Shown here: piece by piece, positions 3-27,153 of the stretch
Layout: every line of letters starts with the position of its first letter
Numbering within the stretch: the stretch's first letter is position 1
Origin: Candidatus Latescibacterota bacterium
GTDB lineage: Bacteria > Latescibacterota > UBA2968 > UBA8231
Assembly: GCA_965242865.1 (NCBI GenBank)
Contig: CBDETK010000004.1
Location: forward strand, 1 to 28,433
DNA: 28,433 bases
Direction: 5' to 3'
Notes under the pieces: generated by a model
Seen by the model: the letters and a program-made list of their open reading frames with translations, nothing else
Told to the model about the DNA's origin: nothing
Database searches by the model: none
Position numbers and translations under genes: made by a program

Positions 3-311
3 ATCGAGGAGTTGGGTTTTGTCGGTGCATCTCAGTTCGGCGCGTTGGACGTGATGCAGGAGGAGTTGGAGGGCGGGCGGGATGTGAACATTTTGGATAA
101 CGGCGGGCAGACGGCGTTACATGCGGCGGCGGAGTTCGGCCACCTGGAGGGGGTCAAACTGTTGGTGGCGTGGGATGCGGACCTAACCATCGTGGATCGC
201 TGGGGCGACACGGCGCGGGATTGTGCGGCGGCGCAGGGGCATGCGGAGATCGTAGCGTTTTTGGAAGCCGCGGCGGTGCGGCGCGAGAAACAAACCCATT
301 TAAACTTTTGA
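3..311 (+). CDS. Ankyrin-repeat protein (probably 5'-truncated by the window edge)
   Basis: GQTALHAAAEFGHLEGVKLLV...D..IVDRWGDTARDCAAAQGHAEIVAFL matches the ankyrin consensus (G.TPLH.AA..GH..IV..LL). The frame is open from position 3. Confidence 0.9.
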   Translation: MEELGFVGASQFGALDVMQEELEGGRDVNILDNGGQTALHAAAEFGHLEGVKLLVAWDADLTIVDRWGDTARDCAAAQGHAEIVAFLEAAAVRREKQTHLNF

Positions 312-323
312 GGGGAAGTAACC

Positions 324-515
324 ATGGAAAAGAAACATATCACGACGGCGTTGGGTCCGGCGCAATTGGAGAAGTTGATGGCGCGGTGCTCCGAACTGAA
401 TGTCAAAATGTCGCCGCTTATCGCGATGATGATTGACATGGGGGGGTTGGATTTGCCCGGCTTGGAGGAGGCCGCGGCGGCCCACAATCGGTATCGCTGT
501 ATCCGCAAACGCTAA
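324..515 (+). CDS. Small putative ribbon-helix-helix DNA-binding protein (63 aa)
   Basis: GAGGGG RBS. N-terminal strand-like KHITTAL followed by two predicted helices. Its stop overlaps the methyltransferase start (TAATG). The fold is an inference. Confidence 0.55.
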   Translation: MEKKHITTALGPAQLEKLMARCSELNVKMSPLIAMMIDMGGLDLPGLEEAAAAHNRYRCIRKR

Positions 516-3907: not shown

Positions 3908-4268
3908 GACCGAACAACCGTTCGCGCCTATGCGTAAGGGGCAGGTCATTGCGGTGGCTCGGGTCTGGTGGGACGAGGCGGAGGTGGTCTGGGGGTTTAC
4001 GCTCGCCCGGGTGGTGCGTACCAATCGCGAGGGGTTTGTGACGCACTTCGTCTTGAGCACGCGGGACGGGTTCCCCGATGCAACGCCGCGCAAGGCGACC
4101 CAAGGCAACACGCTGGGCATTACCGCGTGTTATGATATTGGGTGGGGCGCTCAGTCGGTGGGCGACCGCTTAGCGGGCGTCGTCTGGCCCAATCTCAAGG
4201 CGGCGCGGAAGGCGATCCGTGCGGCGTATGACGACCTGCCCCCACCGGAAAAAGGAGACCTAGCATGA
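3897..4268 (+). CDS. Hypothetical protein
   Basis: GGAGG upstream of ATG 3897 (3888 is an alternative start); overlaps the previous stop. Confidence 0.7.
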   Translation: MKTKTEQPFAPMRKGQVIAVARVWWDEAEVVWGFTLARVVRTNREGFVTHFVLSTRDGFPDATPRKATQGNTLGITACYDIGWGAQSVGDRLAGVVWPNLKAARKAIRAAYDDLPPPEKGDLA

Positions 4269-4292
4269 CCGAGCGCCGTAGCGTAGTAGCCT

Positions 4293-4329
4293 GTATCTCC
4301 CGCGGGCTGAGTCGGGAGTGGATTGAAAC
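4293..4329 (+). repeat. Solitary CRISPR-repeat-like unit 2
   Basis: GTATCTCCCGCGGGCTGAGTCGGGAGTGGATTGAAAC (37 nt); stem CTCCCG/CGGGAG. Confidence 0.8.
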
Positions 4330-4331
4330 CG

Positions 4332-4787
4332 ATGAGTAAGCCTACGCGCGGTCGGTCCCGCAGCCCCGTGTCCCGCGGCGAGCATGATGACCAGATACGG
4401 GCGTTGTATGAACGTGGCTACACCCACGCTGAGATCGCGGAGCGGGTTTGTTCAAACCGTACGACGGTCAGCTATCGGATCAAGGCGTTGGAGCTTACGC
4501 GGCCGGCGGGACCTCCCCGTCGGCCGCGCATCATCACGAGGCGCGGGAAGCTGAAGTCTGGGGCCTACGACAAGGCCGCCTATGACCCACACAAACGCCT
4601 CGCGGCGGATATATTGGCTCCCTTGTGTGAGGTTGCGAAATACGAACCAGACAGCAACGAGGGACGTCTGGCGCGCACCCAACTGCGTTGGGCGATGGGT
4701 ACTATCGAGTTGAACATCATTGGAGCGTGCATTACAATACTGGATGTGGAGCGGCAAGTCGCTGAAATTTTAACGAAGGAGGAGTAG
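4332..4787 (+). CDS. Helix-turn-helix DNA-binding protein
   Basis: IRALYERGYTHAEIAERVCSNRTTVSYRIKAL is a typical HTH pattern. Confidence 0.8.
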   Translation: MSKPTRGRSRSPVSRGEHDDQIRALYERGYTHAEIAERVCSNRTTVSYRIKALELTRPAGPPRRPRIITRRGKLKSGAYDKAAYDPHKRLAADILAPLCEVAKYEPDSNEGRLARTQLRWAMGTIELNIIGACITILDVERQVAEILTKEE

Positions 4788-5321: not shown

Positions 5322-5492
5322 ATGAACGAGCAACATGAAGCGATGGAGCAAGCGCAGGACGATGCCAAGAGCGATGCGTCCCATGAGGGCGTCCGTATGC
5401 AGAACGCGCACGGCGGCGAGCTGGTGATCAACGAAGGGCTGGTGATGTACCGAAAAGTGCTTTGGGCGTTGCCCGAGCGCAAGACGCCGTAG
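5322..5492 (+). CDS. Small hypothetical protein (56 aa; not in the ORF track)
   Basis: A/C-rich leader and GGAGG RBS; MNEQHEAMEQ...LWALPERKTP*. GTG 5316 is an alternative start. Confidence 0.6.
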   Translation: MNEQHEAMEQAQDDAKSDASHEGVRMQNAHGGELVINEGLVMYRKVLWALPERKTP

Positions 5493-5736: not shown

Positions 5737-8700
5737 CTAATCGACCACTTGGAACGTGAGCGGCATATAGATTGTTTCTGTGCCGTCCGACGCGATCAGC
5801 ACCGCCGGCCGGGGGTATAGGTCGGCGGTGCTTTGTGCGTTGGCCGACAACTGAAAGACGTTGCGCGCTAAGGTGACACTGCGGGCTATTTGCACCGGGC
5901 AGCCCGTCGTGTACGCAAAGCGTAGCGTGTAGGTGATCGTACGCCCCGCCACCGTGCTGGCATACGAGAAGTCCGCATTAGCGGTCTGTCGTTGCGTTCC
6001 GCGTGTCCCCTCATTGAACACCACAAAGTTGCGCGTCCCTTTCTTGATGGGATAGAAGGTCTGCGCGGGGATGCCCGAGGCGTTCGGTAGCTCATACGCC
6101 CACGTCAGGTTATTGGCGGCGGCCGTGGACGGCTGCACAAACGTCTTGAGGGTGCTTAGCTTGACGAAGCGGTTGGGGTCGCCGCTGGTGCTCTCATCGC
6201 TGACGACCATGCGGTCATCATCGTGCAGGGTCGTTAGCTCGGTGGTGACGTCATCGTGCAGGTCGAACGGGTCGGCGGTGGGTGTGCTACCCGTGCCAAT
6301 GAACGCCTTGAGCGTTGCCAGCGTAACATACCGGGTAGGGTCGCCGCTGGCCGACTCGTCGCTCACCACCATGCGGTCGTCGTTGTGTAAGGTGGTTAGT
6401 TGCGTCGTAACGTCGTCATGCAGGTCAAAGGCGTACCGATTATCAAGGGCCTGCAAGGTGATAAAGCGATTGGGCTGGTTGGCCGCCGACACGTCGGCCA
6501 CCACGAACTTGTCGAGCGGGTCTAAGCCCGAGCCGACCAACTGGGTGGGTACATCGATGTTGAGATGGAACCCCGGAACGTTCGCCCACTGACCTGTGTT
6601 GTTGACATACTGGAGCCTGCGGGACCTACTGCTATAGAAGGCATTGCCTTGTGTTCGAAAAAGCAAGTAACTCGCGAGAGAACCAACCGCCACATAGCGG
6701 TTGGGGTCACCTGATACGGACTCGTCACTAATAAGCATCCGATCCTCAGCATGTAAGGATGAGATAGCCGTGGTTACATCGTCATGCAAGTCAAACGAAC
6801 CGCCGCCACTGCTTAGGCCCGCTGTGAAGAACGTCTTGAGGGTGCTGAGGGTGACGTAGCGGTTCGGGTCGCCCGACGCCCCCTCGTCGCTAACCAACAT
6901 CCTATCGTCGTTATGCAGGGACGGAATGACCGTGGTAACGTCATCATGCAGGTCAAAATTCTTTAGCCCCGCCGTTATGAACGTCTTGAGGGTGCTGAGG
7001 GTGACGTAGCGGTTCGGGTCGCGGCTGGCCGACTCATCGCTTACAACCATGCGGTCGTCGTTGTGCAAGGTGGTTAGTTGCGTAGTAACGTCATCATGCA
7101 GGTCAAACGAGAAGAATAACTTGAGGGCGCCTAACGCGACATAGCGGTTCGGGTCGCCCACGAGCGACTCATCGCTAATCAACATCCTATCATCATTGTG
7201 CAGGGCCTGAATGACCGTGGTAACATCATCGTGCAAATCAAAATTGCCGCCGCCACTACTTAACCCCGCCGTGAAGAATGTCTTGAGGCTTGCCAACGTG
7301 ACATAGCGGTTCGGGTCGCCGCTTTCCGACTCATCGCTAATCAGCATCCGATCCTCATCGGCCAACGCCGCCGCCACCGTACTCACATCATCATGCAGGT
7401 CAAACGGGTCCGCCACAAACGTCTTGAGGGTTGCCAGCGTGACGTAGCGGTTCGGATCGCCACTAACTGATTCGTCGCTGATTAACATCCGGTCGCTGTT
7501 GTTCAGCGTTGTTAGTTGCGTAGTAACGTCATCATGCAGGTCAAACGCGAAGAACGGCTTGAGGCTTGCCAACGTGACATAGCGGTTCGGGTCGCCGCTT
7601 TCTGACTCATCGCTAATCAGCATCCGATCCTCATCGGCCAACGCCGCCGCGACCGTACTCACATCATCATGTAGGTCAAACGTCTCCACCGCCGGGACCG
7701 CCACATCCTCCCAACTATCTCCATCGTAGTATTCAAGATTGGACGGCGACGTGTTATCGTAGCGTACGTCATTCGCCGCCACGGGCAACTCAGTAACTGC
7801 CACATCCTCCCATTCGGCCATCGCCGTATAGCGTTCCAACTTGGACGGGCTAGTACGCGCATAGCGTATGTCGCCAGCCCGTGGGTCGCGCACGGGCACG
7901 TTCTGCCAAGCCGTGCCACTCCAATACTCAAGGGATGTTTCGCTGGAGGAGTCATAGCGCACATCGCCGCCCCCCGTGGTAACATCCACTTCAATAGGTA
8001 GGCTTATGCTCTCGTTGCCGCTGGTCGCTATCCACGTGAACGACACCACTTGCTCTGTCGAGGGAGCAGGGGCATTGATGGTAACAGCACCCGTCATTAA
8101 GTCCACGTCTAACCACGTAGGGAGCTCCATCGTGCTATATGCAATAGCGGCCATATCCACGGTGGAGACCGCCACGGGCAACACCGGCGAGAGCGGTGCT
8201 GTGACGGGCCGCCCCGCCTCAGCACGAAAACGCCGCGCGCCCGCCGTAGCCCATGTAAGCGTCGCGGCCGGGGCAACGGTCACATCGTCAATAGCAACAT
8301 AGATAGGCAAGCATATCGCCTCGTCGCCGCTCGTGGCGATCCATACAAACGACTCCGGCCCTTCGGGCGCATCCGCGATAGCCGTTACAATGCGAGTGGT
8401 AAGGTCCACACTGAGCCAGCTTGGAACATCGACCGCTGTATAGACGATAGACGCGCCGCTGGTCGTAGAGGATGCTTGAGGTAACGTGGGCGTTACCGGG
8501 TCTAACACACGGCTGCCCTCAACAATATCAATACGACGGGTGCCGCCCGCTTGGAAGGTGAGCTCGGCAGCAGGAACCGTGCCGGTTATAATTACGGGAG
8601 AAGTGGTAAGCCGTATTAGATTATCAGTAATAATATGGCCGCTAAGTAAAAAATTGAGGAGATTATATGAACTGTCTCTTCCATACCAACCGACTGAATC

Positions 8701-11700
8701 GGTTGCGGTCCCTATATTTGTTTCACTTGATTGTCTTACTGGTAATGCTCGAAGTTGTGAAACATCCAGCAGTTTACCTTCACCGGCACGATTTACTGCA
8801 ACAGGTGCGACCACCCATCCATCGGCTGGTATCGTTTTTGAACTTAGAGTTTCAAACGCATTTACCCCCGACGTTAGTTTCAAGTCAACTGAATACACTT
8901 CAACCGTAACTTGTCCATCCCCATAAAAACTACTTAGGCTTAATTTACCAGAACTACTATTACGATAAAAGGAAAAAGTCTGATCCCCGCCGTTCAAGTT
9001 AATGGTCGCATTATAACTAAACGCATATTCATTGTCTTGAGGATTAGTAGGACGACGAGCCTGTAATAATATGTTGGAATTTGCTGGTATGGTAATATCA
9101 GTATTTAGAATACCATCATAAGGAACCGAAAGAGAAACTCCTCCAATACGAGTGATTGCACTTCCCCCGCTTGTAGCGGGCAACGCCAATGTATGAATAC
9201 GACAAGCCGTTCCACTTATAATTTTCCCCTCATTATTAACTGAAAAACTACCTTCTATTCGTTGCCGGAAAGAACTAATAGCATCTGTTCTAAACCCATT
9301 CGCTCGCACTTCTGCGGCCCTTGCCCAACGTTGCGAACCTTTCTTACGTGCTGTTGGAGCAAACTGAATCCATAACCACCCGGTGGACGGGATGGTAAAC
9401 GACGACATGCCACTGCCCGAATACGTCCCTAACTCAGTAAGGGTAAAGTCTGGCGGCACACTGGTAGTTGCCGCAATAGACAGACTAATCGTTTGACAGA
9501 TCGCCTCTTCGCCGCTCTTAGCGATCCACACAAACGAAGCAAACGTGCTGACACTGGGCGCGTTGGCATTCGCCGTGACCTGCCGGGTAGTCGTATTGAC
9601 ACTCAGATACGAAGGAACGCCGCTGGTCTCGTAGGTGATCGTGCCGCCGCCGGTCTTGATGGCTTGCGGCAACGTGGGCGTCGTGGGGTTAAGCGTTTGG
9701 GTGCTGGGCGTAACCCCTATCATCGTGTCGCCGCCCGACGCCCACGTAAGCGTTGCTTGCGCTTCGGCGCCCAGCATAGCAATCTCAACGGCTATGACTT
9801 GGCTAATGGTCTCGTTGCCGCTGGTCGCCTGCCAGATGAACGACGCCGGCCCCGTCGGCGCTACATCCGTGGCGGTGACAGCCCGTGTGTTTACATCGAC
9901 GCTAAGCCATGTAGGGACGTTCAACGCCGCATACACAATCGCCGCGCTATCGGCTTGCATCGCTTCGGGGAGCACGGGAGCCACCGGGTCTAAGACATTG
10001 CTTTCCTCCGTGGCCCCAATACTAAACGGCTCGGTATTGCTCCACGTTAGCTTAGACACGACACCCGCGGTATCGGCGGGCGTCGTCACCTCCACCGTGC
10101 TCGCCGGCACGGAGCCGGTCACGAGCGTCCCCGTGGGCAGCCACCACGCGGCCCTGATGCGTATCTTCGTCTCAGCGGGTAGGCTGTCCAGAAGGATGTC
10201 GTCGCCCACGTCAACGCTCTCGCGCCGCCCTAAGCGCGTATAGGTCTCGACCGCGCCGGGCAACGGTGCCGCGGTAAGCGTCCCCCACTCCAACGAGACC
10301 TGCGGAAAGACGGCGTTGGTTATGTTAACCGTCACGCGGTCATGCAACAGGTCCTTCGTGGTGATCGTGGGGGGTGCGGTCGCCTGCTCGGGCAACGGCG
10401 TCGTATCGATCTCGCCTAACGCCGTCGAGGCACCAAACAACGTATCGGGATCCTCGCGCAGATAGGCTTGAAGCGTAAGCTCTTTCGTTACATTCGTCCT
10501 GACCACCCTAAACCGCTCGGCCGCGATCCCTTGCTGTGGGTCGGTCAAGGTGACATAATCCCCGGGGCGCACCGTGAGAAGCGCCAGGTTATCGCGGGGG
10601 CGTAAGACGTACGTGCTGCCCCTAAAGAGGCGCAGGTGGCGCAGGGCCAGCGCGGTAAGGCGTTGCGCGGTGTGTGCATTAGACACCAACGAGACATCGG
10701 GCAGCCGCTTTTTTAGGCGCACGTTGCCATCATCGGTCAGCGCATCGCTATTCGTCAATTGGATGTCGTAGGGCTGATAGTTCGCTTGGGCGGCCTGCTC
10801 GATCTTACAGGCAACCACGTTGATACGCTCCTCCACCGGGGGAGCGACATAGAACGGATTGCTCTGAACAATATCATCCGCGCTGAGCACCCGTGCGCCC
10901 GACGTGTAGGCGCGCCCCGGCTCGTAATAGACCTTGTCGCCATGCTCGACGACCGCGCCCTGCCACGCAAAGTCTAACTCCTCCTCCACCGCCCGCGGGT
11001 CATCACTATACTGCACAATCCCCGACACCGGGTACTGGATCGTGCGCGGCACCAACGCCACCGTGACCGTGCCACCAATCTGCTGAATAATCTTTTGGTG
11101 ATCCGCCGCCGAGATCGTCCACGAGGCATAGCCCGTGTGCCAGGTGGGGTCGGTCTGCCCCGACAGGTCCGCCCGCCGCAACGTACTCGTCGGACGGCCC
11201 TCGCCGTCTATGTCATCGGGATGGAGCCAGACCACCCCGCCATTCGCCAGCGTTATTTTTACTGAAACGCTATGCGTCCGCAGCCAATTCCCGATAGGTT
11301 GGGTCAGCGTGACGGTATTCGCGGTCTGCGTAGCCGCCTCCACGTTGACCCGGGCGGTATGCACCGCCCCCGTAGCACTTATCTCTATGTTCGTCAGCAG
11401 ATGGCCCGACGCATAAGTGCGTTGCGCGTCCGTGCCCGTGGGTGAAAAAGTGCGCTCACTCCCCAACTGCGACACGGCGCAAGAAACCGACAGCACGTCC
11501 GCAAACTCGACCGACCGCGCGCATTCGGCTACTGCCGACGTGAACGCGGTGCTATCCAACGACGCATCCTCATCGCCAAACACGCGCTTGCGGTAGTCGT
11601 AGCGGACCACCGCCGCATTTTCGGAAAACGTGGGCGTCGTCTGTCCGGGCCAAGTCGTCTTCAGACCGCGCACGAGAAAACGGATGTTCGGTACAGAATC

Positions 11701-12315
11701 CTCGTTCTGCCAATAACGAATAGTGCGGAACGATTGACCCTGTAGGATGCGCTCCGCCCGTGCGCTGGTCAGCTTGACATGCACCCAGCTCCAATCTTGC
11801 AAGCGATGGCTGCGTGACCAGCCGCCCTTAGCCCACAGGCTGGCCCCCTGATTGCCATCCGCCAGAAAATACTCGCGCAACTCAATCCCGCCATTGAAGT
11901 CCAGTATATCCGTTTCACAGGTCAGCCTATCGCCGGTCTCGCCCGTGGGCGGGTCATGGCGGGTGAGCACCGCCGGGCGGTCGTTGATGTAAAGCCCTTC
12001 AATCGCCTCCATCGCGCCGCGACCCAGCACGTAGGCCAAATGCAAGTCCACCGGGCTTTCTGGGTCTTGCCACGCAAAGACCAAGTGACCGGGAACGTTT
12101 GCCCGCCCATAGACCAAGCGCGGCGTCAATGGGCCACTACTAGGTAACTGTAATTCGCGCTGTACGCGCTCGTCGTGCGCGGGGTTGCGGTTCAGCAGAT
12201 AGCCTACCGCACCCAAGCCCAACGCCGCGGTGACGCCCCAGGGACCGGAAAGCTGCCACGCCGCCAGTTCACCTCCGACGCTCGTAGCCAGTTTGAGAAA
12301 ATTTCTATCGGCCAT
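5737..12315 (-). CDS. Tail tip / host-specificity (lambda J-like) protein with Ig-like and repeated fibre domains, 2192 aa
   Basis: N-terminal 'PRLVYGRANVPG...LGRGAMEAIEGLYIND', 'PNIRFLVRG', 'FSENAAVVRYDY' and 'VRPGDYVTLTD' motifs are typical of siphophage tail-tip proteins. Lies downstream of the tape measure and distal tail genes. Confidence 0.88.
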   Translation of the reverse strand: MADRNFLKLATSVGGELAAWQLSGPWGVTAALGLGAVGYLLNRNPAHDERVQRELQLPSSGPLTPRLVYGRANVPGHLVFAWQDPESPVDLHLAYVLGRGAMEAIEGLYINDRPAVLTRHDPPTGETGDRLTCETDILDFNGGIELREYFLADGNQGASLWAKGGWSRSHRLQDWSWVHVKLTSARAERILQGQSFRTIRYWQNEDSVPNIRFLVRGLKTTWPGQTTPTFSENAAVVRYDYRKRVFGDEDASLDSTAFTSAVAECARSVEFADVLSVSCAVSQLGSERTFSPTGTDAQRTYASGHLLTNIEISATGAVHTARVNVEAATQTANTVTLTQPIGNWLRTHSVSVKITLANGGVVWLHPDDIDGEGRPTSTLRRADLSGQTDPTWHTGYASWTISAADHQKIIQQIGGTVTVALVPRTIQYPVSGIVQYSDDPRAVEEELDFAWQGAVVEHGDKVYYEPGRAYTSGARVLSADDIVQSNPFYVAPPVEERINVVACKIEQAAQANYQPYDIQLTNSDALTDDGNVRLKKRLPDVSLVSNAHTAQRLTALALRHLRLFRGSTYVLRPRDNLALLTVRPGDYVTLTDPQQGIAAERFRVVRTNVTKELTLQAYLREDPDTLFGASTALGEIDTTPLPEQATAPPTITTKDLLHDRVTVNITNAVFPQVSLEWGTLTAAPLPGAVETYTRLGRRESVDVGDDILLDSLPAETKIRIRAAWWLPTGTLVTGSVPASTVEVTTPADTAGVVSKLTWSNTEPFSIGATEESNVLDPVAPVLPEAMQADSAAIVYAALNVPTWLSVDVNTRAVTATDVAPTGPASFIWQATSGNETISQVIAVEIAMLGAEAQATLTWASGGDTMIGVTPSTQTLNPTTPTLPQAIKTGGGTITYETSGVPSYLSVNTTTRQVTANANAPSVSTFASFVWIAKSGEEAICQTISLSIAATTSVPPDFTLTELGTYSGSGMSSFTIPSTGWLWIQFAPTARKKGSQRWARAAEVRANGFRTDAISSFRQRIEGSFSVNNEGKIISGTACRIHTLALPATSGGSAITRIGGVSLSVPYDGILNTDITIPANSNILLQARRPTNPQDNEYAFSYNATINLNGGDQTFSFYRNSSSGKLSLSSFYGDGQVTVEVYSVDLKLTSGVNAFETLSSKTIPADGWVVAPVAVNRAGEGKLLDVSQLRALPVRQSSETNIGTATDSVGWYGRDSSYNLLNFLLSGHIITDNLIRLTTSPVIITGTVPAAELTFQAGGTRRIDIVEGSRVLDPVTPTLPQASSTTSGASIVYTAVDVPSWLSVDLTTRIVTAIADAPEGPESFVWIATSGDEAICLPIYVAIDDVTVAPAATLTWATAGARRFRAEAGRPVTAPLSPVLPVAVSTVDMAAIAYSTMELPTWLDVDLMTGAVTINAPAPSTEQVVSFTWIATSGNESISLPIEVDVTTGGGDVRYDSSSETSLEYWSGTAWQNVPVRDPRAGDIRYARTSPSKLERYTAMAEWEDVAVTELPVAANDVRYDNTSPSNLEYYDGDSWEDVAVPAVETFDLHDDVSTVAAALADEDRMLISDESESGDPNRYVTLASLKPFFAFDLHDDVTTQLTTLNNSDRMLISDESVSGDPNRYVTLATLKTFVADPFDLHDDVSTVAAALADEDRMLISDESESGDPNRYVTLASLKTFFTAGLSSGGGNFDLHDDVTTVIQALHNDDRMLISDESLVGDPNRYVALGALKLFFSFDLHDDVTTQLTTLHNDDRMVVSDESASRDPNRYVTLSTLKTFITAGLKNFDLHDDVTTVIPSLHNDDRMLVSDEGASGDPNRYVTLSTLKTFFTAGLSSGGGSFDLHDDVTTAISSLHAEDRMLISDESVSGDPNRYVAVGSLASYLLFRTQGNAFYSSRSRRLQYVNNTGQWANVPGFHLNIDVPTQLVGSGLDPLDKFVVADVSAANQPNRFITLQALDNRYAFDLHDDVTTQLTTLHNDDRMVVSDESASGDPTRYVTLATLKAFIGTGSTPTADPFDLHDDVTTELTTLHDDDRMVVSDESTSGDPNRFVKLSTLKTFVQPSTAAANNLTWAYELPNASGIPAQTFYPIKKGTRNFVVFNEGTRGTQRQTANADFSYASTVAGRTITYTLRFAYTTGCPVQIARSVTLARNVFQLSANAQSTADLYPRPAVLIASDGTETIYMPLTFQVVD
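6135..7680 (-). repeat. Intragenic ~43-aa repeats FDLHDDV...DRM..SDES.SGDPNRYV.L..LK (9 copies + 1 degenerate)
   Basis: Counted directly in the translation; near-identical DNA blocks are visible. Confidence 0.92.
7980..10050 (-). repeat. Four ~100-aa Ig-like repeats in two pairs flanking an AT-rich insert
   Basis: LT[WF]...P.LP.A...I.Y....P.[WY]L.V...T..VT....AP....F.W.A.SG.E.I repeated at ~9480-10050 (x2) and ~7980-8565 (x2). Confidence 0.8.
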
Positions 12316-12336
12316 TTCTGTTTTTTTCTCTAAAAC

Positions 12337-12349
12337 CTTCGTATATTAG
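12337..12349 (+). promoter_or_regulatory. Putative promoter of the mini-array (CTTCGTATATTAG)
   Basis: TATATT -10-like hexamer in a motif shared with 18205-18217 and 18346-18358; about 17 nt upstream of the first repeat. Confidence 0.65.
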
Positions 12350-12364
12350 GGTAGAGCAAGCCCA

Positions 12365-12539
12365 GTTCTTCCGCGGGCTAAGGCGGAAGTGGATTGAAAC
12401 TGAGGTTACGGAGCCGTCGCTGGCGGTGGCTATCGGTCTCCCCTTGCTTTGGTGAGGGGAGTGGATTGAAACATCATACGATACAGCCCCTCGGGCGCTT
12501 GATCCGGTCTCCCCTTGCTTTGGTGAGGGGAGTGGATTG
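12365..12539 (+). CRISPR. Phage-borne CRISPR mini-array: 3 repeats, 2 spacers, no cas genes in window
   Basis: R1 12365-12400 (GTTCTTCCGCGGGCTAAGGCGGAAGTGGATTGAAAC); spacer 35 nt; R2 12436-12472 (GTCTCCCCTTGCTTTGGTGAGGGGAGTGGATTGAAAC); spacer 34 nt; R3 12507-12539 is identical to the first 33 nt of R2. Confidence 0.9.
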
Positions 12540-12540
12540 C

Positions 12541-12576
12541 CGCCCGTCAACGCTTTTGGTTGGCGGGCGTTTTTTT
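12541..12576 (+). terminator. Rho-independent terminator closing the mini-array
   Basis: CGCCCGTCAAC/GTTGGCGGGCG stem (one G-U pair) followed by a T7 tract. Confidence 0.85.
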
Positions 12577-13075
12577 ATGCCCGCGCCAGCGGCCAGTCAA
12601 ATCGTTTTTCGCTCACCTCGTACATAAAATCCAATCCAATATCGGGGTCGCCCCCGCGCTCCTGCTCGCGCTGCCGCTCCGGTGTCCACACCGCATCCGG
12701 TTCCAACAAATTAAACTTGCGCTTGGAGACTTCCAACAACCACTCGCCGGCCTTATCGACGGTGCTCTGTCCCGCCGTCCCCGTGAAGCGATAGCCGGTG
12801 TCAGCCCATGCGCCGCCATCCGTCCGCGAAAGCAGATAAACCGACACGGTAGCCGGCCCCAAGTCTTCCGGTAGGGTCTGCCGTTGGGCGTCCGAGAGGG
12901 CGATAGCCACCGCCAAGGACGGCTCCGTACCCGCCTCCAGCGTGTGCTGCGGGAAACGGACGTCGAGCAGCCGGCCCCCCCCGCGATACACCTCGCTCTC
13001 AAACGTAATGTTTTGGGGGAACGTCGCCAAGCGTAGGGATGTTCCGATCTTCAAGAGAATAGCCGCGAATTGCAT
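12575..13075 (-). CDS. Minor tail / baseplate hub-like protein (166 aa)
   Basis: Lies between the distal tail and tail-tip genes. 'ITFESEVYRGGG' and C-terminal 'WT.E.Q......D.GLDF......F.W' pattern resembles siphophage hub N-terminal proteins. Confidence 0.7.
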   Translation of the reverse strand: MQFAAILLKIGTSLRLATFPQNITFESEVYRGGGRLLDVRFPQHTLEAGTEPSLAVAIALSDAQRQTLPEDLGPATVSVYLLSRTDGGAWADTGYRFTGTAGQSTVDKAGEWLLEVSKRKFNLLEPDAVWTPERQREQERGGDPDIGLDFMYEVSEKRFDWPLARA

Positions 13076-13077
13076 GA

Positions 13078-13668
13078 TCAGACCGCCTCCTCAAAGGGGA
13101 TGACCCATGGCCCCCACCGGGTCGCGGTGCGCGGTAGGTCTAACGCCCTCGTATCCAAGCGCACGTCCATGGTCGTCGCCGGGGTGATCCCATCGCCCAC
13201 TTTTCCGACAAACACCGGCACCGGGTTCACTTGCGTCGCCGCGGGTTGCGCCCCAGATGCTTGTAACAAGCGGTCGCCCGCCGAGAAGAACTGGCCGTCT
13301 GCCAACGCAACAGCACGGGAGAGGGTTAGACGCCCGCTCTGAGCATCTATCGCACTAATGGTGACAGACGGCACAGGGTTTTCAATCGTCCACAGACCCG
13401 CCAACGGAAGCTCCACCGTCAGGTCACCGCCCCGCGTCTTACGCAGTAGCGCCGACAACTGGCTGGCCAACTGGTTCGCCTCCGATTCCTGCTGATGGGC
13501 AAAGCTCATCCATGTCACCTCGCCCCGCCACGCCCCCGGCGCATAGTAGGCAAAAGACTGTTGACCCGTGTATTCAGAGCGATGCGATTGCAGGCCGGGT
13601 TCCCACGGCAACAACGACACCGCCGTGATGCGGTTCGCCAACGCTTCGGGGATTTGTATATCGGCCAT
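13078..13668 (-). CDS. Distal tail protein-like (196 aa)
   Basis: Directly after the tape measure gene. 'SEYTGQQ......GAWRGEVT' and C-terminal 'IPFEEAV' pattern. Confidence 0.7.
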   Translation of the reverse strand: MADIQIPEALANRITAVSLLPWEPGLQSHRSEYTGQQSFAYYAPGAWRGEVTWMSFAHQQESEANQLASQLSALLRKTRGGDLTVELPLAGLWTIENPVPSVTISAIDAQSGRLTLSRAVALADGQFFSAGDRLLQASGAQPAATQVNPVPVFVGKVGDGITPATTMDVRLDTRALDLPRTATRWGPWVIPFEEAV

Positions 13669-16145
13669 TAGCGCCTCGTGTCGCGGGCTAACGAATCAGA
13701 AATATCGATCATGTTCGGCAATATCTTTTGGTTAAACTCACGTATCAACCCCTCCCCATCCCCGAAGCCTTCTATATGGAACGTGGGTTGGAAGTTTATT
13801 GTGGGCTTCCCTGCCGCCGCTTCCCGTATAAGCTCTTCGGCCAAGCCCGGCTGCACCGACCCGATCCCCGTTGTGGGCGCACCTAATGCCGGCAGACCGC
13901 GCAACTGATTAAGGAGATCGAGGGAACGATCCGCCGCCGACGTCTCAAAGAGGAACGGCGTCGTCCGCGGGTTGAAGATACGCGCCATCAGCGGCTCAAT
14001 AATCTTTAGGCGGATGACCAACAACGCCATCTGGCGAAGCATCTGGCGCATCGCCTCCACCACCGAACCCGGCCCTATGATAGCACTGGCTATCCCCTCA
14101 AACGCCCCCGTAAGGGTGCTACGCACCCGGGCACCCGCCTCGGTCATACGCGCTAACTGTTCATTCGTCGCTTGCAGTGGGCCAGTCAAAAGCCCTAAGC
14201 GCAAGAGCGGGGCAATGTCGGGTCCGGTGAACGCCTCCGCACTCACCCGCTGGCTCAGGCGCACCGCCCGCGCCATGAGGCGCGTACTCTTATCCACCTC
14301 CTCGCCCGTCTTACCAATCGTACCCGATAACAAGCCCCAGGCCCGACGCAGATCCTCCAGCGTCGCCTGCCACGTCAGACTCAACACATTATTGACGCGC
14401 TCGGACTCGGCTTCGGTCACCCCAAAATAGTCCAGCGTCAGGTCGCGGGTGCTTCGAAAAAATTGGGCGATCTGAGCCACATTCGCTTCCGCCTGTTTGC
14501 CGGTAACTCGTAATCCCGTTTCTAATTGCCCGGTAAACTCGTCAATCACCGTACTCAAACTCTCCCCGCGCAACCCCGCCGCAATCGCATCCACCAACGC
14601 GTTCCCCAACGAGTAGAACGAGCCGACAATAAGCGTCACCGCCGCATGGATGCTGTTGACTATGAAACTGGGTATCGTAGCAATAGCCGCCACCACATTA
14701 GCCACAAACCGAAGACCCAAGTTACGACCCAGTTCGCCCCACGTGACGTTTTGCTCCCGCAAGATACGCGACAGATTGAGGAACGCATCGATCAAAAGAA
14801 TGACACCCTCAATAATAGCACCCACGAGCAGAGCACGAAAAGCAGCTTTTGCGGCGATACGCACCAGACCTAACGCCCGCGTCAAGAGGGACAACTGACG
14901 ACGCATGGCGACCAAGCCGCGACGCACCCGCAACACCGCCGCCGCACCAAACGCCAACAGCAACGCACGGCCCGTCGCCGTGATCACACCCCGGAAGCGA
15001 TCCAGATTGTCCGTCAATTGGTTGAAGAAGCCCGCAATGGACGAAAGGAAGTTGGTGAGCTCGGTGGTGACGCCGAACATCCTATCGACCGCCTGTACAA
15101 AGCCAAAGGCGGCCGACGCGGCTAAGCGCAGTTGCCCTATAAGCGTAGCATTGAGTAGGTCCGCCATCCGTTGGGCGGCCCCCGTGCCACCACGAATAGC
15201 CGTCGTCAAATCCTCCACCGAACGGACGTTGCGAATGAGTATCTCGGCAACGGATGCGTTTTCTCTCCCAAAGATATTGAAGATTTCGGCGGAATCGATC
15301 CCCGACCGCCGCAGGTTCTCCAACACGGGTATCAAGCCCAACGACGCAACACTCACGTCATCCAACGAGAGGCCCACCGACGCGAGCGACTGCGCCGCCG
15401 CGCCCGACGGGGCCGCCAGCGACGCCAAGAACCCGCGGAACCCGCGACCGGCGCGGGTGGCGAAAATACCGGCGTTACCTAAAGCACCAATCGCCGCCTC
15501 CGTGGTTTCAACATCGATACCAAATTGCCGAGCGATTGGCCCCACGTAGCTAAGGGCTTGAGTAAGTTCCTCAAAGTTGGTGTTGGCGCTATTCGTGGTT
15601 GTTACGAGTGTGTCCGTTATGCGCTCGGCATCGGCCACCGACAGACCAAACTGATTGATTATGTTGGTGAGTTGATTGCCTACCTCGGCGGTGGTTGCGC
15701 CGCTGGCTGCCGCAAGGTTCAATGTAGCCGGGAGGAGTGAAAATTGCTCGTTGACCGTGTTGCCCGCCCGGGCCAACTCAACCATCGCTTGGGCGGCCTC
15801 TGCAGCCGAAAAACGGGTATTTCTTCCTAAATCACGGGCCAGTTGGTCCAAACGCTGAAAGTCATTGCCGGTGGCATTCGTAATGCCCCGGACTAACGCC
15901 ATACTCTGCTCGTACTCAGCCAGTTGGCGGATGACGCCGCCCAAGCTGGAGGCCGCGCCGAAGGCAGCTAACGCCGCCGCCGCCCGCCGCGCCACCGAGT
16001 TGAAGCCCGAGAGTTCATTCCGTAGGGAACGCACTCTGCGCTGGTGACGGCGTAAGGCCACTTCGGCCGCACGGGTGCTGCGTAACAACTCTCTGGTTCT
16101 ACCAGAGAAGTTGACGAACAAAGTACCGAGCCTCACGCTTGCCAT
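13668..16145 (-). CDS. Tail tape measure protein (TP901-family core)
   Basis: 'YEQSMALVRGITNAT...ARDLGRNTRFSAAEAAQAMVELARAG...LNLAAASG...ANTNFEELTQALSYVGP' is the characteristic core. Probable start is ATG 16145. Confidence 0.95.
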   Translation of the reverse strand: MASVRLGTLFVNFSGRTRELLRSTRAAEVALRRHQRRVRSLRNELSGFNSVARRAAAALAAFGAASSLGGVIRQLAEYEQSMALVRGITNATGNDFQRLDQLARDLGRNTRFSAAEAAQAMVELARAGNTVNEQFSLLPATLNLAAASGATTAEVGNQLTNIINQFGLSVADAERITDTLVTTTNSANTNFEELTQALSYVGPIARQFGIDVETTEAAIGALGNAGIFATRAGRGFRGFLASLAAPSGAAAQSLASVGLSLDDVSVASLGLIPVLENLRRSGIDSAEIFNIFGRENASVAEILIRNVRSVEDLTTAIRGGTGAAQRMADLLNATLIGQLRLAASAAFGFVQAVDRMFGVTTELTNFLSSIAGFFNQLTDNLDRFRGVITATGRALLLAFGAAAVLRVRRGLVAMRRQLSLLTRALGLVRIAAKAAFRALLVGAIIEGVILLIDAFLNLSRILREQNVTWGELGRNLGLRFVANVVAAIATIPSFIVNSIHAAVTLIVGSFYSLGNALVDAIAAGLRGESLSTVIDEFTGQLETGLRVTGKQAEANVAQIAQFFRSTRDLTLDYFGVTEAESERVNNVLSLTWQATLEDLRRAWGLLSGTIGKTGEEVDKSTRLMARAVRLSQRVSAEAFTGPDIAPLLRLGLLTGPLQATNEQLARMTEAGARVRSTLTGAFEGIASAIIGPGSVVEAMRQMLRQMALLVIRLKIIEPLMARIFNPRTTPFLFETSAADRSLDLLNQLRGLPALGAPTTGIGSVQPGLAEELIREAAAGKPTINFQPTFHIEGFGDGEGLIREFNQKILPNMIDISDSLARDTRR

Positions 16146-16173
16146 TTGACACTCCCCCAAAAAGGGCTATACT
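16146..16173 (+). promoter_or_regulatory. Sigma70-like promoter for HNH cassette 1
   Basis: TTGACA (16146-16151), 16-bp spacer, TATACT (16168-16173). Confidence 0.7.
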
Positions 16174-26014: not shown

Positions 26015-26581
26015 CTACAACGCGGCGTGAAGGGGACGCAAGGGCCCCAACAGCCGATCTAACGCACGAAAATCATTCGGCAGGCCCCCGCCGTTGTATA
26101 GCTGCCGCACCAGCAAGACCAACGCCTGCGCCAGCACCGTATCTTTGGGACGACGACCCAGCGTCAACCCGAGGGTCACATTCAGACGCCAGCGCAGATC
26201 CCGAGCATGGGCCGGCCACCCGGCCGGCGGCGCGTTCACGACAACAACATCCGTCGTCGGCGTCACCGTCGTCTCCACATCACCCCAATCATCCGTTTCA
26301 ATCCACTCTCCCTCCGAAGAAGGAGAGAAATACGCGATGCTCTGAAGACTCTTGAACCCTCGCGCCTCAAACACGAGCGCATTCATAGCGCCCATGGGCG
26401 GGTTCGTCGTAAGAACACTCGCCCTATCCACCAGCGGGTAGTCTATGCTTGCCTCGACCCACCCCACCGCCGACGCCAACTGATCCAACAGAAGCGTATC
26501 GTGGTAGGTCTCGTCCACCGCTAAACGCAATTCTAAGCGCAAGCGATCTAACGAGCATATATCGGTAGGCTGAGCGACCAT
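26015..26581 (-). CDS. Head-tail connector (HK97 gp6 / SPP1 gp15-like)
   Basis: 'SLDRLRLELRL......DTLL....SA..WVE' and 'QALVLLVRQLY' motifs. Confidence 0.88.
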   Translation of the reverse strand: MVAQPTDICSLDRLRLELRLAVDETYHDTLLLDQLASAVGWVEASIDYPLVDRASVLTTNPPMGAMNALVFEARGFKSLQSIAYFSPSSEGEWIETDDWGDVETTVTPTTDVVVVNAPPAGWPAHARDLRWRLNVTLGLTLGRRPKDTVLAQALVLLVRQLYNGGGLPNDFRALDRLLGPLRPLHAAL

Positions 26582-27016: not shown

Positions 27017-27137
27017 GTTTCAATCGTTTCAATCCACTCCCGACTTAGCCCTCGGGAGAACGGGGCTTACGCTAAGGCTACTGCGCCTTGATCTTCAACT
27101 TGTTTCAATCCACTCCCGACTTAGCCCTCGGGAGAAC
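27017..27137 (-). CRISPR. Repeat-spacer-repeat unit after the capsid gene, plus a 9-nt repeat remnant
   Basis: Two identical 36-mers GTTCTCCCGAGGGCTAAGTCGGGAGTGGATTGAAAC (- strand; 27102-27137 and 27026-27061) separated by 40 nt; extra GATTGAAAC at 27017-27025. Confidence 0.8.
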
Positions 27138-27153
27138 TGGGCTTACGCCCGCC

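What the first reader, a model, noticed from the sequence alone, without database searches (positions are those of the whole stretch)
12401..12935. Spacer 1 is a recoded version of the phage's own neighbouring tail gene (30/35 match)
Seen: spacer TGAGGTTACGGAGCCGTCGCTGGCGGTGGCTATCG vs coding strand of 12901-12935 GGCGGGTACGGAGCCGTCCTTGGCGGTGGCTATCG. Mismatches are at positions 1, 3, 6, 19 and 20. Positions 19-20 are synonymous (TCC TTG vs TCG CTG, Ser-Leu), so the spacer reads EVTEPSLAVAI vs own AGTEPSLAVAI. The guide has the same sense as the mRNA, implying DNA targeting. Known: in type I systems the 5' end of the spacer is the seed. Inference: the spacer came from the orthologous gene of a close relative, and this phage escapes through seed/PAM differences. 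Partial-match self-regulation is an alternative.
Basis: partly seen in the sequence, partly recalled or inferred. Interest (0 to 1): 0.92.

Follow-up and report, generated by a model that had tools for sequence, protein, structure and literature searches.

The report
Phage mini-CRISPR array against related phages
A tailed phage carries a tiny two-spacer CRISPR array that matches its host's type I-C system, and one spacer is a near-copy of the phage family's own tail-tip gene, which fits the known way viruses borrow host CRISPR to attack close relatives while sparing themselves.

Summary
Spacer 1 (12401-12435, +) matches the coding strand of 12901-12935 at 30 of 35 bases, with mismatches at 1, 3, 6, 19 and 20; the best match in 200 shuffled windows was 23.

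The window is a whole 28.4-kb phage contig (C4). The assembly's chromosome carries a complete type I-C cas operon and a 41-repeat array whose repeat differs from the phage's at 1 of 37 bases.

The phage array sits in a 263-bp cassette between a promoter-like element and a terminator. Its parts are a diverged phage-type first repeat, spacer 1, a repeat, spacer 2 and a truncated repeat. A co-assembled relative (C2) lacks the cassette. Another (C11) carries a small lipoprotein-like gene in the same slot.

The matched gene is a tail-tip protein by synteny, remote homology and fold. The self site has GGA where type I-C needs TTC, plus 5' mismatches. C11 matches slightly better than self (31/35). 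No perfect target turned up in any collection searched.

Best reading (about 0.55): a virus-borne mini-array used against related phages, as described by Medvedeva 2019 and Faure 2019. It is a new member of a known kind. Self-regulation is unlikely. Expression and activity are untested.

The parts
12318..12349 (+). T-rich stretch followed by the promoter-like motif CGTATATTAG (12340-12349), which would drive the array away from the divergent 2192-aa gene
   Evidence: The motif (1 mismatch allowed) occurs 3 times in the window (12340+, 18349+, 18214-) against 0.011 per kb in the chromosome. The same motif precedes an identical R1-type unit in relative C11. The sigma-70 consensus scan found no promoter here, so promoter function is inferred.
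12365..12400 (+). R1: a diverged, phage-type repeat. It has a 7-bp hairpin (CTTCCGC/GCGGAAG) followed directly by the 11-nt handle TGGATTGAAAC, and it supplies the 5' handle of crRNA 1.
   Evidence: The same unit is solitary in relative C11, where it sits in front of a gene.
12401..12435 (+). Spacer 1 (35 nt)
   Evidence: It matches 12901-12935(-) at 30/35, C11:846-880(-) at 31/35 and C2:10207-10241(-) at 30/35.
12436..12472 (+). R2: a 37-nt repeat, 36/37 identical to the host type I-C repeat. The single difference is T for C at the first base of the 11-nt handle.
   Evidence: It folds into a 10-bp hairpin followed by a free handle.
12473..12506 (+). Spacer 2 (34 nt), with no known target
   Evidence: Nothing within 8 mismatches in the assembly, only a chance-level hit in the phage records (E = 4), and 0 exact hits for its 29-nt core in the viral contigs.
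12507..12539 (+). R3: the terminal repeat. The hairpin is intact and the handle is cut short after TGGATTG.
12541..12577 (+). Intrinsic-terminator-like hairpin (11 pairs) followed by a T run, closing the cassette
   Evidence: The fold has z = -5.0. The same terminator, with one difference, closes the lipoprotein cassette of C11.
12901..12935 (-). Protospacer-like self site in the tail-tip gene. It runs from codon 47 (third position) to codon 59.
   Evidence: Its 5' end lies in a loop of lower model confidence (residues 41-52), and its 3' part lies in strand 53-59.
12936..12938 (-). The PAM position of the self site. It reads GGA on the protospacer strand, not TTC.
   Evidence: the flank is ACACGCTGGA in C4, C11 and C2. 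The type I-C PAMs TTC, CTC, TCC and TTT are taken from Rao 2017 passages.
12575..13075 (-). Gene of 166 aa (P0001), a tail-tip or baseplate-hub-like protein. This is the gene the spacer was taken from, in a relative.
   Evidence: It lies two genes after the tape measure gene. 10 of 16 aligned homologues hit phrog_2048 'tail protein'. The fold matches the T5, DT57C, JBD30, T1 and lambda tail-tip structures. P0001 itself has no Pfam or PHROG hit.
13668..16160 (-). Tail length tape measure gene, which sets the context
   Evidence: phrog_1533, E = 2.8e-69.
5737..12315 (-). ORF of 2192 aa just beyond the cassette; family unknown
   Evidence: No PHROG hit and only sub-threshold Pfam hits.
27026..27137 (-). 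Two phage-type repeat units 76 nt apart, separated by a 34-nt insert that matches the 3' end of the capsid gene at 27/34. This is a tandem duplication relative to C11.
26295..26330 (-). A repeat-like unit (9-bp hairpin plus handle) lying inside ORF 26015-26581. In frame it reads ...SSEGEWIETDD...
   Evidence: An identical unit is present in C11.
4294..4329 (+). A repeat-like unit (6-bp hairpin plus handle) ending 2 nt before the ATG at 4332

Best explanation
The window is a tailed-phage contig. Between its tail-tip gene and a 2192-aa gene it carries a self-contained cassette: a phage promoter-like element, a two-spacer type I-C mini-CRISPR array, and a terminator. The phage has no cas genes.

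Inferred mechanism. The transcript is cut by the host's Cas5c at the base of each repeat hairpin. The two crRNAs are loaded into the host's type I-C Cascade. Any incoming or co-infecting relative whose tail-tip gene carries the spacer-1 sequence next to a TTC PAM is then destroyed by Cas3, which amounts to CRISPR-mediated superinfection exclusion.

The carrier is spared because its own copy has GGA at the PAM position and mismatches at spacer positions 1, 3 and 6.

The array probably arose by recombination between a phage repeat-like unit (R1) and a host-type array, not by leader-dependent spacer acquisition.

Shown: the anatomy, the host system, the presence/absence polymorphism of the cassette, the origin of the spacer in this gene family, and the self mismatches. 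Inferred: transcription, processing, loading, existence of the perfect target, and the origin.
For: 1. The array is real and fits the host.
- Two 37-nt repeats in the window differ at 1 base from the 41 identical repeats of the chromosomal array; the reversed-pattern controls gave 0.
- Next to that array lie cas3, cas5c, cas8c, cas7, cas4, cas1 and cas2. All 7 proteins scored above the curated cut-off of a Cas family model.
- cas5c and cas7c each occur once in the assembly, on the chromosome.

2. It looks like a unit that can be processed.
- R1, R2 and R3 each have a hairpin ending exactly at the 11-nt handle.
- Spacer lengths of 35 and 34 nt fall within the host's 34-37 nt range.
- A terminator follows, and a phage promoter-like motif precedes.

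3. It is accessory cargo in a variable slot.
- Relative C2 (92-98% identical flanks) has 14 nt in place of the 263-bp cassette.
- Contigs of runs X3 and X4 bridge the empty form. Contigs of run X1 join phage flank to R1 (12244-12385) and R3 to phage flank (12510-12892) with 0 differences.
- Relative C11 has a 116-aa signal-peptide-plus-Cys ORF between a similar promoter-like start and the same terminator.

4. Spacer 1 comes from this gene family.
- The match is 30-31 of 35 to three alleles, against a chance ceiling of 23.
- Positions 19 and 20 differ synonymously, and position 19 agrees with C11 and C2.

5. Self is spared.
- The flank is GGA in all three alleles.
- The mismatches crowd into positions 1-6 (P = 0.026 for self and 0.011 for C11).
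- The host's own spacers show the same pattern against co-resident small contigs: mismatches at 4,9 / 4,6,9 / 5,6,9 / 1,2,4,30, with flanks ATC, ATT, GCC and GTC.

6. The pattern is in print.
- Virus mini-arrays of 1-2 spacers target close relatives, the carrier's own orthologous locus has point mutations or deletions, and the targets lie near the array. Phage mini-arrays target adjacent genes of relatives and lack leaders (Medvedeva 2019 passages; Koonin and Makarova 2024 passages).
- The upstream region here shows no likeness to the host leader: local score 7 against a shuffle mean of 8.6.
Against: - No target with a perfect or near-perfect match and a TTC PAM was found anywhere. The three sampled alleles all carry the same non-matching 5' end.
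- Spacer 2 has no match at all.
- The three 5' differences would be three amino-acid changes in consecutive codons, in a gene whose alleles otherwise differ mostly synonymously: 35 synonymous against 6 non-synonymous codons between C4 and C11. The 5' end of the spacer may therefore have changed inside the array and not reflect a real allele.
- R1 has a different stem from the host repeat, and R2 and R3 differ from the host at the first handle base. Whether the host Cas5c and Cascade accept them is untested.
- No consensus sigma-70 promoter was found.
- An imperfect self-match could prime spacer acquisition against the carrier, which is a cost (Iranzo 2020 passages).
Confidence: 0.55

Rival explanations
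1. Passive capture. A piece of a host-type array (spacer 1, repeat, spacer 2, repeat) was picked up by recombination at a phage repeat-like unit and is carried without any selected function. The self-similarity of spacer 1 only records that some host had once been immunised against this phage family.
For: - R1 is a phage-type unit that is solitary in C11, while R2 and R3 are host-type.
- There is no host-like leader.
- No live target was found for either spacer.
- The cassette is absent from C2.
- Recombination with host arrays has been proposed in print for phage mini-arrays (Medvedeva 2019 discussion).
Against: - R2 and R3 are identical over 33 nt, with intact hairpins.
- The cassette is neatly framed by a promoter-like motif and a terminator shared with another cargo gene.
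- The handle base of R2 and R3 is the phage type (T), not the host type (C). That variant was absent from 30 of 30 other genomes of the genus.
- Capture and function do not exclude each other.
Confidence: 0.2
2. Decoy or anti-CRISPR RNA. The array and the other repeat-like units of this phage flood the host's Cas5c, Cas7 and Cas8c with harmless guides or repeat mimics. This lowers host immunity in the manner of RNA anti-CRISPRs, and the spacer content only needs to be harmless to the carrier.
For: - The window holds four further hairpin-plus-handle units, and relatives C2 and C11 hold three each. 11 of 12 have a stem of 6 bp or more ending at the handle, against 4.6% of random places.
- Solitary repeat units act as RNA anti-CRISPRs, one of them validated for type I-C, and they often sit right after a promoter (Camara-Wilpert 2023 passages).
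- One host spacer ends with the reverse complement of such a unit.
Against: - A decoy does not need two full spacers of canonical length, nor a spacer taken from the phage family's own gene.
- The published mini-array pattern explains that detail directly.
- The two roles could coexist.
Confidence: 0.15
3. Self-regulation. The crRNA guides Cascade to bind the phage's own tail-tip gene without cutting it, and so tunes late gene expression.
For: - There is a partial match to a neighbouring own gene.
- Regulatory mini-arrays with partial complementarity exist in cas loci and in some phages (Shmakov 2023 passages).
Against: - The site has no PAM and its 5' end is mismatched. A single mismatch at spacer position 1 already weakens type I-C interference (Rao 2017 passages).
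- The match lies mid-gene, not at a promoter.
- Relatives C2 and C11 do without the cassette.
- No site combining a PAM with a 5'-end match beyond chance was found in the assembly for spacer 1 or 2: 2 places reached 12/14 in the whole genome, one of them for spacer 1 and none for spacer 2.
Confidence: 0.03
4. Assembly artefact. Host array reads were wrongly joined into a phage contig.
For: Repeats break short-read assemblies, and summed depth over 12404-12556 is very high because host repeats pile up there.
Against: - Run contigs join phage flank to R1 and R3 to phage flank with no differences.
- R1 is a phage-type unit.
- R2 and R3 differ from all 41 host repeats at one base.
- The spacers are absent from the host array.
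Confidence: 0.02

Closest known systems
Virus-borne mini-CRISPR arrays of Saccharolobus portogloboviruses SPV1 and SPV2 (Medvedeva et al. 2019, PMC6858448; passages read)
   Same: - 1-2 spacers in an intergenic site, and no cas genes on the virus.
- Repeats like the host's.
- The spacer matches a gene of close relatives near the array.
- The carrier's own locus differs by point changes.
- Related variants co-occur in one population.
   Different: - This is a bacterial tailed phage with a type I-C host, not an archaeal virus.
- There is no host-like leader here, whereas the SPV arrays have one.
- The first repeat is a diverged phage-type unit.
- No reciprocal targeting and no perfect target were observed.
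Phage and prophage mini-arrays and solitary repeat units surveyed by Faure et al. 2019 (not read; known to me only as cited)
   Same: Leaderless mini-arrays in phages whose spacers hit adjacent genes of related phages but not the carrier, with repeats that fit the host's CRISPR subtype.
   Different: I could not check whether this phage family, or a type I-C case with a hybrid first repeat, is already in their lists. The paper and all supplements were out of reach.
RNA anti-CRISPRs (Racr), including RacrIC1 (Camara-Wilpert et al. 2023, PMC10651486; passages read)
   Same: - Phage-borne repeat mimics of the host subtype.
- Often right after a promoter or inside an operon.
- R1 and the four other units in the window look like such mimics.
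   Different: - The feature under study has two full spacers and three repeats, so it is an array, not a solitary unit.
- Unit density is high: 7 in 28 kb counting the array.
- One unit lies inside a coding frame.
Regulatory cr-like mini-arrays (CreTA; crlRNAs; Shmakov et al. 2023 preprint 10.1101/2023.03.03.530964; passages read)
   Same: A two-repeat unit with one diverged repeat and a spacer that only partly matches its target.
   Different: Those spacers match promoter regions and repress them. That their pairing is PAM-adjacent is recalled, not read. Here the match is PAM-distal, mid-gene and without a PAM.
Phage morons: independent promoter-gene-terminator cassettes between structural genes (recalled, not from a call)
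   Same: Its own promoter-like start and terminator, opposite in orientation to the flanking tail genes, present or absent among close relatives, and with alternative cargo in the same slot.
   Different: The cargo is an RNA array, not a protein gene.

Membership tests
Virus-borne mini-CRISPR array | One or two spacers between CRISPR repeats, on a viral genome | tested here: met
   There are three repeat units and two spacers. The contig encodes major head, neck, tape measure and tail-tip proteins.
Virus-borne mini-CRISPR array | No cas genes on the element; repeats match the host's system | tested here: met
   cas5c and cas7c occur only on the chromosome, and none of the 30 window ORFs scanned against PHROGs hit a Cas family. 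The repeat is 36/37 identical to the host's 41-copy repeat, which lies beside a complete type I-C operon. The contig is cut at both ends, so the rest of the phage genome was not seen.
Virus-borne mini-CRISPR array | The spacer targets a related virus | tested here: inconclusive
   The best relative is C11 at 31/35, with the same non-PAM flank. No perfect protospacer was found in any collection searched.
Virus-borne mini-CRISPR array | The carrier's own orthologous site is mutated so that it is not targeted | tested here: met
   5 mismatches, 3 of them in positions 1-6, and GGA in place of TTC. That this blocks interference follows from published type I-C data and was not assayed.
Type I-C CRISPR repeat | A hairpin directly followed by an 11-nt 3' handle ending in ATTGAAAC, cut by Cas5c | tested here: met
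   A 10-bp hairpin followed by TGGATTGAAAC in R2 (R3 keeps the hairpin but its handle stops after TGGATTG), and a 7-bp hairpin plus the same handle in R1. That Cas5 does the processing in type I-C comes from a figure legend of Camara-Wilpert 2023. The 11-nt handle length is recalled. Cleavage was not assayed. Rfam gave no hit at gathering threshold.
Canonical CRISPR array able to acquire spacers | A leader like the host's next to the first repeat | tested here: not met
   The local alignment score between the host leader and the phage upstream region is 7; 290 of 300 shuffles scored at least as high.
RNA anti-CRISPR (solitary repeat unit) | A single repeat mimic with no second repeat within about 100 bp | tested here: not met
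   The unit under study has three repeats at 71-72-nt spacing. The units at 4294-4329 and 26295-26330 are solitary, but they are not the finding.
Regulatory cr-like RNA | Complementarity at the PAM-adjacent end, next to a PAM, in a promoter (feature recalled; the passages read state only partial complementarity to promoter regions) | tested here: not met
   The match is PAM-distal, lies at codons 47-59, and has a GGA flank. No other site combining a PAM with a 5'-end match stood out above chance.

The most novel reading that the evidence does not exclude
This phage family has turned the host's type I-C repeat into a general-purpose RNA module. Promoter-proximal hairpin-plus-handle units sit in 5' untranslated regions and even inside a structural gene, where they serve as Cas5c/Cascade sinks or processing sites. 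One such unit (R1) acted as the docking point at which host-array spacers were recombined in. That event converted a defensive repeat mimic into an offensive mini-array, and the handle base of the captured repeats was then converted to the phage type. The 5' end of the spacer would have been reshaped inside the phage to make the guide safe for its carrier.
Probability: 0.25. Interest if true: 0.65.

Novelty: new member of a known kind. Interest (0 to 1): 0.4.

Why it matters
It is a clean bacterial example of a virus using its host's CRISPR system against its own relatives.

- All the pieces sit in one assembly: the host type I-C system, the array-bearing phage, a sibling without the cassette, and a sibling with a different cargo gene in the same slot.
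- That makes the exclusion hypothesis, and the cost of an imperfect self-match, directly testable.
- The hybrid first repeat links mini-arrays to solitary repeat mimics and hints at how such arrays are built.

It does not change what is known about the kind.

Tried and rejected
Search for the true target. All of these were blank.
- Relatives of the 166-aa protein in viral contigs: 4 pattern hits, none confirmed.
- Genome contigs: 132 pattern hits, none confirmed.
- Metagenome contigs: 199 pattern hits, none confirmed.
- The word-indexed protein collection returned only the query itself among 87 candidates.
- Phage records by tblastn: no match.
- 75 other genomes of the family: 0 with the protein, and 0 with spacer 1 at up to 3 mismatches.
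- A 29-letter pattern covering spacer positions 7-35, with positions 19-20 left free: 0 hits in viral, metagenome and genome contigs.
- Spacer 1 and spacer 2 against phage records gave only chance-level partial hits, best E 0.03 and 4.
- The core of spacer 2 in viral contigs: 0.
- The host or phage repeat in viral contigs: 0.
- The 50%-identical homologue P0002 in viral contigs: 7 pattern hits, none confirmed.
- All of these tools may leave out records of the window's own genome or near kin.

Sequencing runs.
- 5 runs from 2 studies hold part of the stretch. No RNA holder is listed, so nothing can be said about expression.
- Laying 4 of the 5 runs showed the empty and lipoprotein forms of the slot. 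The table of differing letters was cut (65 rows not shown), and no row for 12901-12935 was printed, so I could not read allele variation at the protospacer.
- A 151-nt contig of run X5, from a second study, covers 12834-12979 with 2 differences whose positions were not shown.

Other hypotheses examined.
- Spacer acquisition at the second pair of units (27026-27137) was rejected. The alignment with C11 shows a 76-nt tandem duplication that includes the 3' end of the capsid gene.
- Partial PAM-plus-5'-end targets in the host for spacers 1 and 2, which would suggest regulation of host genes, gave nothing beyond chance.
- Host spacers against this phage family: none within 9 mismatches on C4, C2 or C11.
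- A gapped reading of the spacer's 5' end (a one-codon indel in the source allele) is possible, because the homologue alignment has an indel exactly there. It cannot be decided without the source allele.

Tools and papers out of reach.
- Supplements of the papers were not opened. Supplementary Data 2 of Medvedeva 2019 and the lists of Faure 2019 and Camara-Wilpert 2023 may already hold similar type I-C phage arrays.
- Faure 2019 itself was not read.
Full report
**What is there**

The window is the whole of contig C4 (28,433 bp) of a 6.0-Mb, 13-contig assembly. Its long ORFs are those of a tailed phage:
- major head protein, head-tail adaptor, neck and endolysin-like proteins;
- a tape measure protein at 13668-16160, phrog_1533, E = 2.8e-69;
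- a DNA methyltransferase at 515-1321.

None of the 30 window ORFs scanned against PHROGs hit a Cas family.

A short unit on the + strand lies between the start of a 2192-aa ORF (5737-12315, -) and the stop of a 166-aa ORF (12575-13075, -). Its parts, are:
- a T-rich stretch and the motif CGTATATTAG (12340-12349);
- R1 (12365-12400);
- spacer 1 (12401-12435);
- R2 (12436-12472);
- spacer 2 (12473-12506);
- R3 (12507-12539, handle cut short);
- an 11-pair hairpin with a T run (12541-12577).

**The observation**

- Spacer 1 matches the reverse complement of 12901-12935 at 30 of 35 positions, with mismatches at 1, 3, 6, 19 and 20.
- The next best places in the window score 23. The best score in 200 shuffled windows averaged 21.1 and never exceeded 23. 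A binomial estimate for the whole window is 3.5e-8.
- The site begins at the third position of codon 47 of the 166-aa gene, whose product reads ...HTLEAGTEPSLAVAIAL....
- Positions 19 and 20 are synonymous. Positions 1, 3 and 6 would change codons 47-49. The spacer has the sense of the mRNA.

**The host system**

- The repeat pattern finds 2 copies in the window and 41 on chromosome contig C13, with 0 for the reversed control.
- The 41 chromosomal repeats are identical to each other and differ from R2 and R3 at one base: C against T at the first base of the 11-nt 3' handle. Their 40 spacers are 34-37 nt long.
- Upstream of the array's leader lie cas3, cas5c, cas8c, cas7, cas4, cas1 and cas2. 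All seven score above the curated cut-off of a Cas family model; for Cas1, Cas7, Cas8c and Cas5c that model is the type I-C one.
- cas5c and cas7c each occur once in the assembly, on the chromosome.
- The system that fits the phage array is therefore a DNA-targeting type I-C system. Its canonical PAM is 5'-TTC, with CTC, TCC and TTT as weaker functional PAMs. Its commonest spacer length is 35 nt. A single mismatch at spacer position 1 already weakens interference (Rao 2017, passages; abstracts).

**The array as a unit**

- R2 and R3 fold into a 10-bp hairpin that ends exactly at the handle.
- R1 has a different 7-bp stem (CTTCCGC/GCGGAAG) in the same place, followed by the same handle. Both spacers are thus flanked as a Cas5c substrate should be. 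That Cas5 does the processing in type I-C comes from a figure legend.
- The region upstream of R1 has no likeness to the host leader. This matches what is reported for phage mini-arrays.
- The consensus scan found no sigma-70 promoter.
- The motif CGTATATTAG occurs three times in the window, at the array and at a divergent intergenic pair near 18.2-18.35 kb, against 0.011 per kb in the chromosome. It also precedes an identical R1-type unit in relative C11.
- I take it as a phage promoter. That is an inference.

**A variable slot**

- Two other small contigs of the assembly are close relatives: C2 and C11, 92-99% identical over long stretches.
- In C2, 14 nt stand in place of the 263-bp cassette.
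- In C11, the slot holds a 116-aa ORF that begins with a signal-peptide-like stretch ending in Cys. It sits between a similar AT-rich start and the same terminator. It has no Pfam or PHROG hit.
- Contigs of public runs confirm the forms. An empty-slot bridge appears in X3 and X4. In X1, loose ends show both the empty and the lipoprotein forms, and pieces join phage flank to R1 and R3 to phage flank without differences. X1 may be the sample of origin, so this is not independent support.
- The cassette behaves like a moron with exchangeable cargo. 'Moron' is a recalled term.

**The gene the spacer came from**

- The 166-aa protein has no Pfam or PHROG hit of its own.
- In the word-indexed collection it has no close relatives outside the assembly.
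- The exhaustive search found 18 proteins at E <= 0.001, counting the query itself.
- 10 of the 16 aligned proteins hit phrog_2048 'tail protein'.
- A model built on that alignment has mean pLDDT 79.3. It matches solved siphophage tail-tip and baseplate proteins: T5 7zhj_b (E = 1.2e-5), DT57C, JBD30, T1, and lambda 8iyk_L (E = 2.2e-3), with TM about 0.5.
- With its position two genes after the tape measure gene, 'tail gene' is supported.
- The 5' end of the protospacer (codons 47-49) lies in a loop of lower confidence, residues 41-52. In the alignment this protein has one residue more there than the other 15. The rest of the protospacer lies in a strand.

**Self and relatives**

- Within the assembly, spacer 1 matches C11 at 31/35 (mismatches 1, 3, 6, 20), C2 at 30/35 (1, 3, 6, 7, 20), and self at 30/35.
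- All three alleles have the flank ...CTGGA, so GGA stands at the PAM position.
- The mismatches crowd into positions 1-6 more than chance would give (P = 0.026 for self, 0.011 for C11). They also exceed what the 5-11% divergence among alleles predicts (P = 0.002-0.02).
- The alleles otherwise differ mainly at synonymous sites: 35 against 6 codons for C4 versus C11.
- So the 5' differences are not ordinary drift. Either the source allele differed in a hypervariable loop, possibly under CRISPR pressure, or the spacer changed after capture.
- The host's own spacers show the same signature against other co-resident small contigs: mismatches at 4,9 / 4,6,9 / 5,6,9 / 1,2,4,30, with flanks ATC, ATT, GCC and GTC. 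This fits an active system that tolerates only PAM and 5'-end variants.

**Search for the target**

No perfect or better target was found in the viral, genome or metagenome contigs, the phage records, the protein collections, or 75 genomes of the family. Spacer 2 matches nothing. These searches may omit near kin of the window's genome, and the read table at the protospacer was cut. The absence is therefore weak evidence.

**Interpretation**

The anatomy and the self/relative pattern are those described for virus-borne mini-arrays:
- 1-2 spacers and no cas genes;
- host-like repeats;
- spacers against close relatives, often in genes near the array;
- the carrier's own site mutated;
- phage examples without a leader, thought to gain spacers by recombination with host arrays (Medvedeva 2019 passages; review passages).

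I therefore read the cassette as a type I-C mini-array that uses the host's Cascade-Cas3 against related phages (confidence 0.55).

Rivals:
- Passive capture without function (0.2).
- A decoy or anti-CRISPR role, suggested by the many repeat mimics in this phage (0.15; Camara-Wilpert 2023).
- Self-regulation (0.03). It is disfavoured because the match is PAM-distal and mid-gene and the site has no PAM.
- An assembly artefact (0.02; speaks against it).

**Origin**

- R1 is identical to a solitary unit of C11 that follows the same promoter-like motif in front of a gene. The equivalent place in C4 has the motif but not the unit.
- R2 and R3 have the host's stem-loop but the phage's handle base. 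That variant is absent from 30 of 30 other genomes of the genus.
- This fits recombination between a phage repeat mimic and a host-type array, followed by homogenisation of the handle. It is an inference.

**Verdict**

This is a new member of a known kind, made somewhat more interesting by three things: the slot polymorphism, the hybrid first repeat, and the unusual load of repeat mimics.

Noticed in passing
window 4294-4329 (+), 26295-26330 (-), 27026-27061 (-), 27102-27137 (-); also C2 (L012) near 308, 2383, 2905 and C11 (L011) near 5326, 15467, 16189: This phage family carries many hairpin-plus-TGGATTGAAAC units that mimic the host's type I-C repeat. 11 of 12 have a stem of 6 bp or more ending at the handle, against 4.6% of random places, with five different stem sequences. 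Several end just before a ribosome-binding site and ATG. They are candidate RNA anti-CRISPRs or Cas5c processing sites.
   Followed up: partly
window 26295-26330 (-), inside ORF 26015-26581; and window 4266-4340 (+): Two of the units lie in open reading frames, and the handle reads EWIETD in both. One is inside a 188-aa ORF with a weak head-tail adaptor hit. The other is in a 25-codon ORF whose stop overlaps the next ATG. A repeat mimic embedded in a coding sequence is unusual.
   Followed up: partly
window 27026-27143 (-): A 76-nt tandem duplication relative to C11 gives two units separated by 34 nt. Those 34 nt match the 3' end of the capsid gene at 27/34, with mismatches at 3, 4 and 25-29 and the flank GTC. 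This is a second mini-array-like unit with a partial self-match, here created by duplication.
   Followed up: partly
C11 (L011) 104-454 (+): In the slot where the window has the array, relative C11 has a 116-aa ORF with a signal-peptide-like start ending in Cys. It has no Pfam or PHROG hit. It could be a surface or exclusion protein, which is a guess.
   Followed up: partly
C13:3522939-3525849 (host array), spacer 5: One host spacer ends with the reverse complement of AGAGTGGATTGAAAC, that is, of a phage-type repeat mimic. The host may have taken a spacer from such a unit in an unsampled relative. The best full-length match in the assembly is poor, with 12 mismatches.
   Followed up: partly
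C13:3527369-3527423 and C13:3528138 (L009 about 1570-1625 and 2339): Repeat-like units lie inside the host cas operon. A degenerate repeat with a doubled handle sits between cas4 and cas1, and GGATTGAAAC stands directly before the cas4 ATG. They resemble the cr-like regulatory elements described for cas loci.
   Followed up: no
C13:4796500-4800850: A second, larger CRISPR array in the host has a different 37-nt repeat ending in GGGGATTGAAAC. It has about 57 copies at 73-86-nt spacing. Its cas genes were not looked for.
   Followed up: no
contigs C9, C12, C6 of the assembly: Host spacers 26 and 36-38 match these small contigs at 27-33 of 35-36 bases. For spacers 37 and 38 against C9 and C12 the mismatches lie at the 5' end (positions 4-9) and the flanks are not TTC. 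C9 and C12 each hold the matched site twice, about 10.4 kb apart, which suggests a roughly 10.4-kb element assembled as a dimer.
   Followed up: partly
window 18214 (-) and 18349 (+): A divergent pair of the promoter-like motif CGTATATTAG, each behind a T-rich stretch, is probably the phage's own promoter type. At the equivalent place C11 has the motif plus an R1-type unit; C4 has the motif without the unit.
   Followed up: partly
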